Shown here: positions 27,035 to 29,774 of the stretch, in pieces | How positions within the stretch are numbered: the first letter of the stretch is position 1 | Layout of the letters: each line of letters starts with the position of its first letter | Assembly (NCBI RefSeq): GCF_050920415.1 | Contig: NZ_CP169309.1 | Length of the DNA stretch: 64,000 nt | DNA from: Escherichia coli | Lineage (GTDB): Bacteria; Pseudomonadota; Gammaproteobacteria; Enterobacterales; Enterobacteriaceae | Direction: 5' to 3' (one strand) | Program-made: the position numbers and the translations under genes | The notes under the pieces: generated by a model | Told to the model about the DNA's origin: nothing | Database searches by the model: none | What the model saw: the letters and a program-made list of their open reading frames with translations, nothing else

Positions 27035-27076
27035 AACGACTTCATAGTTAATCTGTCAAATAATCAGGCTGTCACA

Positions 27077-27313
27077 TTATTCAAAAAGCAACCCAATTAG
27101 TGAATTGTAGTGTTTCTGTTCCTCTTCCCCTGTCGCTTGCTCCAGTCGACAAAGAAGTTTGGTACAAAGCGACTTTCGACTCAGATTACGTCCATCTTTC
27201 AAAATTTCAGTCACAATTTCCCCGAGGGTTTCCTGCTGAGTAGGCAAGTTAGCTTTTGCAAAGTAACGAGTAATTGCCCCCGCAGAATCTGAAATCACTG
27301 AATTTTGCTGCAT
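27077..27313 (-). CDS. ycgZ: Small protein YcgZ
   Basis: 78-aa ORF, first gene of the ycgZ-ymgABC operon, divergent from bluF. Confidence 0.8.
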   Translation of the reverse strand: MQQNSVISDSAGAITRYFAKANLPTQQETLGEIVTEILKDGRNLSRKSLCTKLLCRLEQATGEEEQKHYNSLIGLLFE

Positions 27314-27367
27314 GCTACGCCTCTATTAAAAATGTTAAACGTTGTTAAGTGCAGTAACAATAGCAAA

Positions 27368-27389
27368 CTTGTACGAAATATGTGTACAG
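27368..27389. promoter_or_regulatory. TGTAC-N9-GTACA inverted repeat in the ycgZ promoter region (candidate BluR operator)
   Basis: CTTGTACGAAATATGTGTACAG lies 55-75 nt upstream of the ycgZ start. Confidence 0.45.
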
Positions 27390-27626
27390 AATGATAAATT
27401 ATTTTTTTGCAATTAGTGCTAACACCTATAAAACAATGAGATACGTAAAAATTATTTGCATCATTTGACTGACAACCTATACAAGATTCCAAACGAACTC
27501 ATCTTCAAATTTTTCCATCTTTCATCAATGTAAATAAATAGTTATGTTTTAGTATTAAAAGCAAGACACCAGAAGATATGTCTGTTACCGTCATACTCTC
27601 GCCTCGCCCATTACCCTGGACTATTA

Positions 27627-28838
27627 ATGCTTACTACCCTTATTTATCGTAGCCATATACGTGACGACGAACCTGTCAAAAAAATCGAAGAAATGGTTTC
27701 GATAGCAAATCGCAGAAACATGCGGTCTGACGTAACAGGGATTTTACTGTTTAATGGTTCACATTTTTTTCAACTTCTTGAAGGTCCGGAAGAACAGGTT
27801 CAAATGATTTATCGGGCCATATGCCAGGATCCACGGCACTATAATATCGTTGAACTGCTGTGCGATTACGCACCTGCTCGCCGTTTTGGCAAAGCAGGAA
27901 TGGAATTATTTGATTTGCGCCTCCACGAGCGCAATGACGTTTTACAGGCCGTACTCGACAAAGGCACCTCAAAATTTCAGCTAACTTATGATGACAGAGC
28001 GCTGCAATTTTTTCGTACTTTTGTTCTTTCAACTGAAAAATCAACCTATTTCGAGATTCCTGCCGAAGACTCCTGGCGTTTTATCGCTGACGGACCTGAT
28101 AAAGAACTTGATTCCTGTACCCTTTCACCAAATATAAACGACCACTTTGCCTTTCATCCTATTGTCGATCCTTTATCGCGGCGGATAATCGCTTTTGAAG
28201 CAATTGTTAAAGATAGGGAAGACAGCCCATCAGCCAGAGTGGTTGGGCAAAGCAATGACGGGGAAATCTACACAGCGGATCTCAAAAGTAAGGCACTTGC
28301 ATTCGCGATGGCACACGCACTTGAGCTCGGTGATAAAATGATTTCAATCAATCTATTACCTATGACCCTGGTTAACGAGCCTGACGCGGTCTCTTTTTTA
28401 CTTGATGAAATAAAGGCCAATGGTTTGGTGCCTGAACAAATTATCGTGGAATTTACTGAAAGTGAGGTCATATCTCGGTTTGATGAATTTGCCGATGCTG
28501 TTAAATCACTTAAGGCTACCGGTATGAGTGTAGCAATTGACCATTTTGGCACAGGTTTTGCCGGTTTGTTACTCCTGTCACGCTTCCAGCCTGACAGAAT
28601 TAAAATCAGTCAGGAATTGATTACCAATGTTCATAAAAGCGGGCCTCGGCAGGCAATTATTCAGGCGATCATAAAATGCTGTACATCACTTGAAATTCAA
28701 GTCTCTGCTATGGGTGTGGCAACACCAGAAGAGTGGATGTGGCTTGAATCTGCAGGAATTGAGATGTTTCAGGGAGATCTGTTTGCCAAAGCTAAATTGA
28801 ATGGTATCCCTTCAGTTGCGTGGCCGGAGAAAAAATAA
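27627..28838 (+). CDS. bluF: Blue-light sensor BLUF-EAL protein (YcgF/BluF)
   Basis: 403 aa; N-terminal BLUF motif (YRSHIRDD...LLFNGSHFFQLLEG) and degenerate EAL C-terminal domain. Confidence 0.9.
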   Translation: MLTTLIYRSHIRDDEPVKKIEEMVSIANRRNMRSDVTGILLFNGSHFFQLLEGPEEQVQMIYRAICQDPRHYNIVELLCDYAPARRFGKAGMELFDLRLHERNDVLQAVLDKGTSKFQLTYDDRALQFFRTFVLSTEKSTYFEIPAEDSWRFIADGPDKELDSCTLSPNINDHFAFHPIVDPLSRRIIAFEAIVKDREDSPSARVVGQSNDGEIYTADLKSKALAFAMAHALELGDKMISINLLPMTLVNEPDAVSFLLDEIKANGLVPEQIIVEFTESEVISRFDEFADAVKSLKATGMSVAIDHFGTGFAGLLLLSRFQPDRIKISQELITNVHKSGPRQAIIQAIIKCCTSLEIQVSAMGVATPEEWMWLESAGIEMFQGDLFAKAKLNGIPSVAWPEKK

Positions 28839-28957
28839 TTTTCAGCACATTATTTCACATGATTTCTGGAAATCATCGTGAAAATGAATACGTTATGTTT
28901 TAATTTAATCCACATTAAAAATAATGTTTTATCCAATTTAGCTGAAATCTTATTTAT

Positions 28958-28991
28958 ACTTTGTACAATTTTAGCGTATATTGTACAAAGT
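28958..28991. promoter_or_regulatory. Perfect 11-bp inverted repeat ACTTTGTACAA-N12-TTGTACAAAGT upstream of bluR (candidate MerR-type operator)
   Basis: Seen directly; a third GTGTACAG lies at 29003..29010; about 50 nt upstream of the bluR ATG. Confidence 0.5.
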
Positions 28992-29042
28992 ATTATTGGG
29001 TCGTGTACAGGCGACGGAGATTTATGAGCGCAAGGAGGAATT

Positions 29043-29774
29043 GTGGCTTATTACAGCATTGGTGATGTTGCTGAACGTTGCGGGATTAATCCTGTCACTC
29101 TCCGGGCTTGGCAACGCCGCTACGGTTTGTTAAAACCACAGCGCAGTGAAGGCGGACACCGACTCTTTGATGAAGAAGACATACAACGCATCGAAGAGAT
29201 CAAGCGTTGGATAAGTAATGGCGTCCCTGTAGGCAAAGTTAAAGCATTACTGGAAACCACCAGCCAGGATACGGAAGATGACTGGAGCCGCCTGCAAGAA
29301 GAGATGATGTCAATTCTTCGTATGGCTAATCCTGCCAAACTACGCGCGAGAATTATTTCACTGGGTCGAGAGTACCCGGTAGATCAATTGATTAATCATG
29401 TTTACCTTCCTGTTCGTCAGCGTCTCGTGCTTGATCACAACACCTCCCGCATTATGAGCAGTATATTTGACGGCGCATTAATTGAATACGCAGCAGCCTC
29501 ACTTTTCGAAATGCGCCGTAAGCCCGGTAAAGAAGCCATTCTAATGGCGTGGAATGTTGAAGAGAGAGCACGATTGTGGCTGGAAGCATGGCGTTTATCA
29601 TTGTCAGGATGGCATATTTCTGTCCTTGCTGATCCCATTGAATCGCCGCGCCCGGAACTGTTCCCGACGCAAACATTGATTGTCTGGACTGGCATGGCAC
29701 CAACGAGAAGGCAAAACGAACTATTACAACACTGGGGTGAGCAAGGTTATAACGTCATCTTTCATGCCCCCTAA
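29043..29774 (+). CDS. bluR: MerR-family repressor BluR (YcgE)
   Basis: 243 aa; N-terminal MerR HTH ([30 protein letters not shown]). Confidence 0.9.

What the first reader, a model, noticed from the sequence alone, without database searches (positions are those of the whole stretch)
27368..27389. Related TGTAC-N9-GTACA inverted repeat in the ycgZ-bluF divergent promoter region
CTTGTACGAAATATGTGTACAG shares the TGTACA half-site with the bluR-upstream palindrome and lies just upstream of ycgZ, the known target operon of BluR. A shared half-site at both locations argues for a common regulator motif.
Basis: partly seen in the sequence, partly recalled or inferred. Interest (0 to 1): 0.45.

Follow-up and report, generated by a model that had tools for sequence, protein, structure and literature searches.

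The report
Known BluR operator in ycgZ promoter
This short inverted repeat is the already mapped DNA site where the E. coli repressor BluR sits on the promoter of the ycgZ biofilm-control operon, so it is real and functional but not new.

Summary
The sequence is exactly as described: CTTGTACGAAATATGTGTACAG at 27368-27389, with TGTAC-N9-GTACA at 27370-27388, 57-75 nt upstream of the ycgZ start codon on the minus strand.

It is the published BluR operator. Tschowri et al. 2012 (PMC3509220) footprinted BluR on the K-12 ycgZ promoter. They described a protected GTACA...GTACA repeat overlapping a TGTAC...GTACA palindrome, covering the -35 and spacer. Point mutations in it abolished binding and derepressed ycgZ.

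The window is identical to K-12 across this promoter core. These are the only GTACA/TGTAC words in the intergenic region. The BluR DNA-binding domain is also identical to K-12.

A 5-bp-arm inverted repeat alone is no more than chance. The support comes from the hexamer:
- In 43 syntenic ycgZ/bluF/bluR loci, 39 carry a TGTACA pair (N7 or N8, at most 1 mismatch) upstream of ycgZ.
- None of 1874 background windows does.
- E. coli has a slightly degenerate copy.

The shared half-site upstream of bluR is also real and conserved, but at a different spacing (17-20 bp versus 13). No paper I could search tests binding there.

Verdict: confirmed, interpretation supported, already known. The only possibly new parts are BluR autoregulation and the variable hexamer spacing.

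The parts
27370..27388 (.). BluR operator of the ycgZ promoter. On the + strand it reads TGTACgaaatatgTGTACA; in ycgZ sense TGTACAcatatttcGTACA. It spans about -38 to -20 relative to the ycgZ transcription start.
   Evidence: Sequence. Published DNase I footprint and mutagenesis on the identical K-12 sequence. Identity to K-12. Only GTACA/TGTAC words in the intergenic region. Cross-genus conservation.
27383..27388 (.). Promoter-distal hexamer TGTACA, a perfect palindrome that overlaps the -35 element.
   Evidence: Positions 1-6 of the cross-species matrix are 33-34 of 34 conserved.
27370..27375 (.). Promoter-proximal hexamer, cGTACA in ycgZ sense (TGTACg on +), a 5/6 match that lies in the promoter spacer.
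   Evidence: In the matrix the first base of this hexamer is the least conserved hexamer position (T in 25 of 34). The Escherichia/Citrobacter group has C, G or A there.
27381..27386 (-). Probable -35 hexamer TACACA of PycgZ. This is my assignment from the published 18-bp spacer.
   Evidence: The 18-bp spacer and a start site 36 nt upstream of the ATG are published. Sequence. The boxed hexamers are only in the paper's figure, which is not held.
27357..27365 (-). Extended -10 element TGcTATTGT of PycgZ, with C at -13 as in sigma-S-type promoters.
   Evidence: Kettles 2019 describes an extended -10 and sigma-38 determinants at this promoter.
27349..27350 (-). ycgZ-ymgABC transcription start, carried over from K-12.
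   Evidence: The start is 36 nt upstream of the ATG, and the marbox centre lies 62 bp upstream of it. The two give 27349 and 27350.
27405..27419 (-). MarA binding site (marbox) GCACTAATTGCAAAA, centred near -62.
   Evidence: Kettles 2019 gives the consensus GCAHWWWWTGYYAAA and the position. The window matches 14 of 15 positions and is identical to K-12 here.
27077..27313 (-). ycgZ, first gene of the BluR-repressed ycgZ-ymgA-ariR-ymgC operon.
27627..28838 (+). bluF, the BLUF-EAL anti-repressor that releases BluR from the operator.
   Evidence: Function.
29043..29774 (+). bluR, the MlrA-type MerR-like repressor. Domains: MerR_1 4-71, MlrA_helical 81-154, MlrA_C 162-238.
   Evidence: It differs from K-12 BluR only at residues 141, 152 and 237, so the DNA-binding domain is identical.
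28956..28993 (.). Its two TGTACA hexamers are 20 bp apart and span about -27 to -2 of the published bluR start.
   Evidence: bluR start site 54 nt upstream of the start codon. Hexamer pair conserved in most syntenic loci. Binding not tested.
27478..27483 (-). Third, distal hexamer, TGTATA in this lineage and K-12. It sits at the position where most other genera have a solitary TGTACA, about 100 bp upstream of the operator.
   Evidence: It is part of TTGTATAG(A), which Shimada et al. noted as RcdA-box-like.

Best explanation
The element is the operator of BluR (YcgE), an MlrA-type MerR-like repressor, in the sigma-S/sigma-70 promoter of ycgZ-ymgA-ariR-ymgC. BluR binds two GTACA-containing half-sites, 13 bp apart start to start. 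The distal one (TGTACA) overlaps the -35 hexamer and the proximal one (cGTACA) lies in the 18-bp spacer. Bound BluR bends the DNA and keeps RNA polymerase off the promoter. Under blue light and low temperature, BluF binds BluR and releases it, which derepresses the operon; its small proteins then act through the Rcs phosphorelay on curli and colanic acid. MarA bound at about -62 adds sigma-70-specific activation. Shown in K-12, and carried over here by sequence identity: binding, footprint, loss of repression on mutation, start site and marbox. Inferred: that occlusion of the -35 and spacer is the repression mechanism, and that the protein reads the site as a dyad rather than as a direct repeat.
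For: (1) Tschowri 2012 reports a DNase I footprint of tag-free BluR on PycgZ. It covers GTACA...GTACA overlapping TGTAC...GTACA across the -35 and spacer, with two hypersensitive sites. Point mutations in both half-sites reduce or abolish EMSA binding, and they derepress ycgZ::lacZ as much as bluR::cat does. (2) The window is identical to K-12 from the marbox through the -10, apart from one base in the A-tract between the marbox and the operator. The only GTACA/TGTAC words in either intergenic region are at this site. (3) With the published start site (36 nt upstream of the ATG) and 18-bp spacer, the operator falls at -38..-20, as the paper says. (4) BluR here has a DNA-binding domain identical to K-12 and the MerR_1 + MlrA_helical + MlrA_C architecture. 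(5) Phylogenetic footprint: 31 of 43 syntenic loci, from at least 15 named genera, have an exact TGTAC-N9-GTACA upstream of ycgZ. 39 of 43 have a TGTACA pair (N7 or N8) with at most 1 mismatch, against 0 of 1874 background windows. (6) TGTACA density is 8.2/kb in this intergenic region and 0.20/kb in the rest of the loci. It is 0.21/kb around bluF genes that lack bluR and ycgZ. (7) The operator is invariant in three divergent E. coli alleles sampled from 4881 genomes that carry the region.
Against: Nothing contradicts it. Limits: the footprint figure is not held, so the exact protected bases come from the text, not from the gel. Binding was measured in K-12, not in this lineage. The inverted repeat alone is statistically unremarkable. 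RcdA has also been footprinted in this spacer and may share the site. The authors left open whether BluR reads the site as an inverted or a direct repeat, and my data do not settle it.
Confidence: 0.93

Rival explanations
1. The site is, also or instead, a binding site of the TetR-type regulator RcdA (YbjK). Its box is TTGTnnACA, and its best site is the palindrome TTGTGTACAttTGTACACAA.
For: Genomic SELEX recovered the ycgF-ycgZ spacer 6 times. DNase I footprinting gave a 36-nt and a 26-nt protected band in this spacer, with RcdA boxes 'in tandem'. The window's aTGTGTACA (27380-27388, + strand) matches 8 of 9 bases of the RcdA palindrome arm TTGTGTACA.
Against: There is no exact TTGTNNACA in the intergenic region. 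The sequence of the 36-nt footprint is only in a figure that is not held, so overlap with the operator cannot be verified. RcdA was reported to affect ycgF (bluF) expression, not ycgZ. The cross-genus pattern tracks bluR and ycgZ. RcdA would be a co-occupant, not a replacement, because BluR binding is shown directly.
Confidence: 0.2
2. Same protein, different reading. BluR recognises the site as a head-to-tail direct repeat (GTACA-N8-GTACA) through flexibly tethered DNA-binding domains, as CarH does, and not as a classical MerR dyad.
For: Tschowri 2012 notes both readings. The closest solved relatives of the BluR DNA-binding domain are CarH (5c8d and related entries), 3whp and the CarA domain 2jml, not the coiled-coil metal sensors. 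BluR has helical and C-terminal domains in place of the short MerR dimerisation helix. Hexamer spacing varies with context: 13-14 upstream of ycgZ, 17-20 upstream of bluR, 19 at Pantoea-type ycgZ genes and 18 at csgD. That is hard to fit to one rigid dimer. From my own knowledge, CarH binds tandem 11-bp direct repeats.
Against: In most genera both hexamers are full TGTACA palindromes, so the two readings cannot be told apart. The outer flanks are dyad-symmetric (T at position 0 in 23 of 34, A at position 20 in 22 of 34). A 6-N7-6 layout matches classical one-dimer MerR operators such as CueR (my own knowledge).
Confidence: 0.3
3. The site is a target of the paralogue MlrA, as cross-talk, rather than specifically of BluR.
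For: MlrA and BluR differ at only four residues in the helix-turn-helix, and BluR binds the MlrA site at csgD weakly. The csgD MlrA box carries the same hexamer: TGTGCA-N12-TGTACA, verified in L086.
Against: The MlrA box spacing is 18 bp start to start, against 13 here. A bluR knockout alone fully derepresses ycgZ, and operator mutations derepress it to the same extent. No report of MlrA acting at ycgZ was found.
Confidence: 0.07
4. It is a chance inverted repeat, or an RNA hairpin or terminator, with no protein-binding role.
For: 5-bp-arm inverted repeats are as common in shuffled sequence.
Against: Published footprint and mutagenesis. Conservation in 39 of 43 loci against 0 of 1874 background windows. 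The site lies upstream of the start site, so PycgZ does not transcribe it. Folding z-scores are only -1.0 and -1.4, and no terminator-like site is found.
Confidence: 0.01

Closest known systems
BluR (YcgE) operator in the E. coli K-12 ycgZ promoter (Tschowri, Lindenberg and Hengge 2012, Mol Microbiol 85:893; PMC3509220)
   Same: It is the same element. The operator and the promoter core around it match K-12, with one substitution in the A-tract between the marbox and the operator. Position is the same (-35 plus spacer), the flanking genes are the same, and the repressor's DNA-binding domain is identical.
   Different: Nothing in the element itself. The surrounding locus belongs to a divergent allele, about 93% identical to K-12 over 2 kb; only 9 E. 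coli records are 99% or more identical.
MlrA box upstream of csgD, AAAGTTGTACA(12N)TGCACAATTTT (Ogasawara et al. 2010, as quoted in PMC3509220)
   Same: It shares the GTACA/TGTACA half-site, is bound by a paralogous MlrA-type MerR-like protein, and BluR binds it weakly. The sequence was verified in an E. coli contig, L086 912-935.
   Different: The hexamers are 18 bp apart start to start, against 13 here. It lies far upstream of the core promoter and mediates activation. The ycgZ site overlaps the -35 and spacer and mediates repression only.
Classical MerR-family operators (MerR merO 7-4-7, CueR copA 7-7-7; from my own knowledge)
   Same: A roughly 19-bp dyad inside a promoter with a longer than optimal spacer (18 bp). 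A 6-N7-6 layout like the CueR site. DNA distortion is indicated by the hypersensitive sites.
   Different: The operator is shifted upstream onto the -35 instead of centred in a 19-20-bp spacer. BluR is not known to activate. Release is by a protein anti-repressor (BluF), not by a ligand-induced DNA twist.
CarA/CarH operators with the CarS anti-repressor (Myxococcus, Thermus)
   Same: The closest solved DNA-binding domains. The repressors respond to light. Tschowri 2012 names CarS-CarA as the functional analogue, an anti-repressor that competes with operator DNA.
   Different: The sequence motifs are unrelated. CarH senses light itself through B12. Only residues 3-85 of BluR match CarH by sequence.
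RcdA box TTGTnnACA (Shimada et al. 2012, PMC3535384)
   Same: Overlapping sequence vocabulary (TTGTGTACA), and RcdA binds this same spacer.
   Different: It is a TetR-family protein. There is no exact box here, and the footprint position cannot be checked.

Membership tests
BluR operator of PycgZ (Tschowri 2012) | Contains the footprinted motif: GTACA...GTACA direct repeat overlapping a TGTAC...GTACA palindrome | tested here: met
   In ycgZ sense the site reads TGTACAcatatttcGTACA. These are the only such words in the intergenic region, in both the window and K-12.
BluR operator of PycgZ (Tschowri 2012) | Same sequence as the K-12 fragment that was footprinted and mutated | tested here: met
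   The pairwise alignment is identical from the marbox to the -10 except for one base in the A-tract between the marbox and the operator. The operator itself is identical.
BluR operator of PycgZ (Tschowri 2012) | Half-sites overlap the -35 and the spacer of the ycgZ promoter | tested here: met
   With the published start site (36 nt upstream of the ATG) and 18-bp spacer, the operator spans -38..-20, the -35 is at 27386..27381 and the spacer at 27380..27363. The hexamer assignment is mine.
BluR operator of PycgZ (Tschowri 2012) | Cognate repressor BluR and anti-repressor BluF encoded at the locus | tested here: met
   bluF and bluR are adjacent. The BluR DNA-binding domain is identical to K-12. 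Pfam finds MerR_1 + MlrA_helical + MlrA_C.
BluR operator of PycgZ (Tschowri 2012) | BluR physically binds and represses in this strain | not testable with these tools
   This needs EMSA, a footprint or a reporter assay. It is inferred from sequence identity with K-12.
MlrA box (csgD type) | Two (T)TGTACA-like hexamers separated by 12 nt, with AT-rich flanks | tested here: not met
   The half-site is shared, but the gap is 7 nt here against 12 at csgD.
MlrA box (csgD type) | Located far upstream of the core promoter and mediates activation | tested here: not met
   The site overlaps the -35 and spacer, and the literature shows repression only.
Classical MerR-family operator | Dyad-symmetric 18-22-bp site | tested here: met
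   A 19-bp site with 5-bp perfect arms in E. coli and 6-bp arms (TGTACA-N7-TGTACA) in 21 of 43 syntenic loci.
Classical MerR-family operator | Centred between -35 and -10 of a promoter with a 19-20-bp spacer, where the regulator activates by DNA distortion | tested here: not met
   The spacer is 18 bp and the site is shifted onto the -35. BluR is described as a repressor only.
RcdA box | Match to TTGTnnACA inside the RcdA-protected region | tested here: inconclusive
   There is no exact match in the intergenic region. The site matches 8 of 9 bases of the palindrome arm TTGTGTACA.

The most novel reading that the evidence does not exclude
The TGTACA hexamer is the recognition unit of the BluR/MlrA family and is used at context-specific spacings: 13-14 bp upstream of ycgZ in Enterobacteriaceae, 17-20 bp over the bluR promoter, 19 bp at Pantoea/Erwinia-type ycgZ genes and 18 bp at csgD. 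That would imply flexibly tethered, CarH-like DNA-binding domains rather than a rigid MerR dimer. It would also imply that the conserved pair bracketing the bluR -10 (about -27 to -2) makes BluR repress its own gene, or lets MlrA control it. I found no paper describing such a feedback loop in the blue-light circuit. A third conserved hexamer about 100 bp upstream of the ycgZ operator might add looping or control of bluF.
Probability: 0.4. Interest if true: 0.4.

Novelty: already known. Interest (0 to 1): 0.12.

Why it matters
For the scan, this is a true positive that re-finds a textbook-level regulatory site from sequence alone, so it adds no new biology. The site is the switch through which blue light and cold (BluF/BluR), sigma-S and MarA control the Ymg/Rcs pathway, and so the choice between curli biofilm and colanic acid. 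The comparative work adds some value. It shows the operator is an old, widely conserved TGTACA-N7-TGTACA element and that E. coli carries a degenerate version. It also shows that the same hexamer marks the bluR promoter at a different, conserved spacing. That gives a concrete, testable prediction of BluR autoregulation and bears on how MlrA-type proteins read DNA.

Tried and rejected
1. Inverted-repeat statistics alone. The number of 5-bp-arm repeats in the intergenic region equals the shuffle expectation, so I dropped this as evidence and used hexamer enrichment and conservation instead.
2. RNA hairpin or terminator. Folding z-scores are -1.0 and -1.4 and no terminator-like site is found. Rejected.
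3. Simple sigma-70 promoter scan of 27250-27700. It found nothing, which fits a weak -35 and a sigma-S-type extended -10 promoter. I used the published start sites instead.
4. Exact RcdA box search (TTGTNNACA). There is no hit in the intergenic region, and the RcdA footprint sequence could not be obtained from the text.
5. Tschowri et al. 2009 (Genes Dev), tried by DOI and by a PMC id recalled from memory. It is not held, so its data on ycgE expression could not be checked.
6. Literature searches for BluR autoregulation, a BluR ChIP or SELEX data set, or MlrA acting at bluR. Nothing relevant turned up.
7. Deciding between the direct-repeat and inverted-repeat readings from the cross-species matrix. 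It cannot be decided, because TGTACA is its own reverse complement.

Full report
**Observation.** Window 27368-27389 reads CTTGTACGAAATATGTGTACAG. The core TGTAC-N9-GTACA occupies 27370-27388 and is the only such match in the 64-kb window.
- ycgZ at 27313..27077 on the minus strand, followed by ymgA, ariR and ymgC
- bluF at 27627..28838 on the plus strand
- bluR at 29043..29774 on the plus strand

These come from ORFs and from RefSeq annotation of matching E. coli records. The element lies 57-75 nt upstream of the ycgZ ATG. The locus is a divergent E. coli allele: 100% identical to strain MFDS1022581 and about 93% to K-12 over 2 kb.

**Is it more than chance?** As an inverted repeat, no. The 313-bp intergenic region contains 5 perfect 5-bp-arm repeats with 5-15 nt spacers, and shuffles give 5.8. 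The repeat finder at a 6-nt seed does not list this pair. The signal is in the word TGTACA. Four of the window's ten copies lie in the 517 bp of the ycgZ-bluF and bluF-bluR intergenic regions, where 0.08 are expected (P = 1.7e-6).

**What it is.** Tschowri, Lindenberg and Hengge 2012 (PMC3509220) footprinted purified BluR on the K-12 ycgZ promoter. [quoted passage not shown] Point mutations in the half-sites reduced or abolished binding in EMSA. [quoted passage not shown]

In ycgZ sense the window reads TGTACAcatatttcGTACA. The window is identical to K-12 from the marbox through the -10, apart from one base in the A-tract between the marbox and the operator. In both sequences these are the only GTACA/TGTAC words in the intergenic region. 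The published description can therefore only refer to this site.

**Promoter anatomy.** The paper places the ycgZ start site 36 nt upstream of the ATG and gives an 18-bp spacer. Kettles et al. 2019 place the MarA box 62 bp upstream of the start. Carried over to the window, this gives:

| Feature | Window coordinates (minus strand) |
|---|---|
| Transcription start | about 27349-27350 |
| Extended -10, TGcTATTGT | 27365..27357 |
| Spacer | 27380..27363 |
| -35, TACACA | 27386..27381 |
| Marbox, GCACTAATTGCAAAA | 27419..27405 |

The operator then spans about -38 to -20. The hexamer assignments are mine, because the figures are not held.

**The repressor.** BluR in the window differs from K-12 BluR only at residues 141, 152 and 237, so its DNA-binding domain is identical. 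Pfam finds MerR_1, MlrA_helical and MlrA_C.

**Comparative test.** A scan of one genome per species with BluF returned 80 loci. With the two E. coli records that makes 82 loci, of which 43 have the arrangement ycgZ divergent from bluF-bluR.
- 31 of 43 have an exact TGTAC-N9-GTACA upstream of ycgZ.
- 21 have a perfect TGTACA-N7-TGTACA, 5 a perfect N8 pair and 13 an N7 pair with one mismatch.
- In all, 39 of 43 have a pair with at most 1 mismatch, against 0 of 1874 background windows.

In the 34-sequence N7 matrix the hexamer positions are 33-34 of 34 conserved. The exception is the first base of the proximal hexamer (T in 25 of 34), which is the position that is C in E. coli. E. coli therefore carries a slightly degenerate copy of an older TGTACA-N7-TGTACA operator.

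TGTACA density is 8.2/kb in the ycgZ-bluF intergenic region and 10.3/kb in the bluF-bluR region, against 0.20/kb in the rest of these loci. Around bluF genes that lack bluR and ycgZ it is 0.21/kb. The operator is unchanged in three divergent E. coli alleles sampled from 4881 genomes that carry the region.

**Mechanism.** Shown in K-12 and carried over by identity: BluR binds this operator and represses ycgZ-ymgABC. BluF binds BluR in a light-dependent manner and releases it. The promoter is sigma-S dependent and is also used by sigma-70, with MarA activating from about -62. Inferred: repression works by occluding the -35 and spacer.

Not settled is how the protein reads the site. Its 6-N7-6 layout resembles one-dimer MerR operators such as the CueR site (my own knowledge). 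However, the nearest solved DNA-binding domains are those of CarH and CarA. Hexamer spacing also varies with context, which would suit flexibly tethered domains better than a rigid dimer.

**The shared half-site at bluR.** The bluR promoter carries ATACTTTGTACAAT-N10-ATTGTACAAAGTAT at 28956-28993, with a third TGTACA at 29004. With the published bluR start 54 nt upstream of the start codon, the two hexamers sit at about -27..-22 and -7..-2 and bracket the -10 (TATATT, 28977-28982).

A hexamer pair at 17-20 bp start to start, most often 19, lies 56-88 nt upstream of bluR in most syntenic loci. This resembles the MlrA box at csgD, which I verified as TGTGCA-N12-TGTACA, 18 bp start to start, in an E. 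coli contig. Two caveats apply: the geometry differs from the ycgZ site, and I found no report of BluR or MlrA binding there or of bluR autoregulation. Tschowri 2009 is not held.

**Rivals.**
- RcdA, a TetR-type regulator, was selected on this spacer and footprinted in it. Its box vocabulary overlaps (TTGTGTACA). There is no exact box here, and the footprint sequence is not in the text. It may share the site with BluR but cannot replace it.
- MlrA cross-binding is possible but unsupported at ycgZ.
- Chance and RNA-structure readings are excluded by the published mutagenesis, by conservation and by weak folding.

**Verdict.** The element is already known: it is the BluR operator of PycgZ. Interest is low. 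What remains possibly new is the conserved, differently spaced hexamer pair on the bluR promoter, which predicts autoregulation, and the spacing dimorphism across genera.

Noticed in passing
window 28956-29009: The bluR promoter carries a 14-nt-arm perfect palindrome, ATACTTTGTACAAT-N10-ATTGTACAAAGTAT. Its two TGTACA hexamers bracket the -10 of the published bluR start, and a third TGTACA lies at 29004-29009. A hexamer pair 17-20 bp apart is conserved upstream of bluR in most of the 43 syntenic loci. This predicts BluR autorepression or MlrA control. No report of either was found.
   Followed up: partly
window 27478-27483 (- strand); L003-L080, about -171 to -184 from the ycgZ ATG: A third, solitary TGTACA is conserved about 100 bp upstream of the ycgZ operator in most genera, and some genera have two or three there. 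E. coli and the window have TGTATA at the homologous position, inside the TTGTATAG(A) that Shimada 2012 flagged as RcdA-box-like.
   Followed up: partly
L051, L054, L066, L069, L073, L075, L076, L078, L079, L081 (upstream of ycgZ homologues): In these Pantoea, Erwinia and Siccibacter loci, ycgZ homologues not next to bluR carry TGTACA-N13-TGTACA (19 bp start to start) in front of a TATAAC -10. They also have a conserved marbox-like TAGCACTTTTTGCAAAAA. So the long spacing seen at bluR promoters also occurs at ycgZ promoters.
   Followed up: partly
L003-L080, last 110 nt before ycgZ: There are two operator placements. In Escherichia and Citrobacter, and in L032, L045 and L011, the proximal hexamer ends 7 nt before the -10. 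In most other genera it ends 15 nt before a TATAAC -10. The whole operator therefore sits about 8 bp further upstream there, and the proximal rather than the distal hexamer overlaps the -35.
   Followed up: no
L085 (E. coli OkiPb01684, NZ_AP042519.1 1707148-1707438): An IS1A element is inserted a few bases upstream of the BluR operator. It replaces the marbox and upstream promoter DNA but leaves the operator and the -10 intact.
   Followed up: no
window 27050-29100: This bluF-bluR-ycgZ allele is rare. Only 9 of 4985 matching E. coli records are 99% or more identical, and nearly all others are 90-95%. In the identical strain bluF is annotated 'diguanylate phosphodiesterase' rather than BluF. 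Twelve matches are on plasmids.
   Followed up: no
window 29043-29771 (BluR protein): By sequence, the closest solved structures to the BluR DNA-binding domain are the light-dependent B12 repressor CarH (5c8d and related entries), 3whp and the CarA domain 2jml. The metal-sensing MerR proteins score lower. The match covers residues 3-85 only.
   Followed up: no
window 27405-27419 (- strand) and L003-L082: The MarA box (GCACTAATTGCAAAA in the window) has recognisable counterparts of the form TAGCAYTTTTTGCWAAAA upstream of ycgZ in many genera, which suggests that Mar/Sox/Rob input to this operon is old.
   Followed up: no
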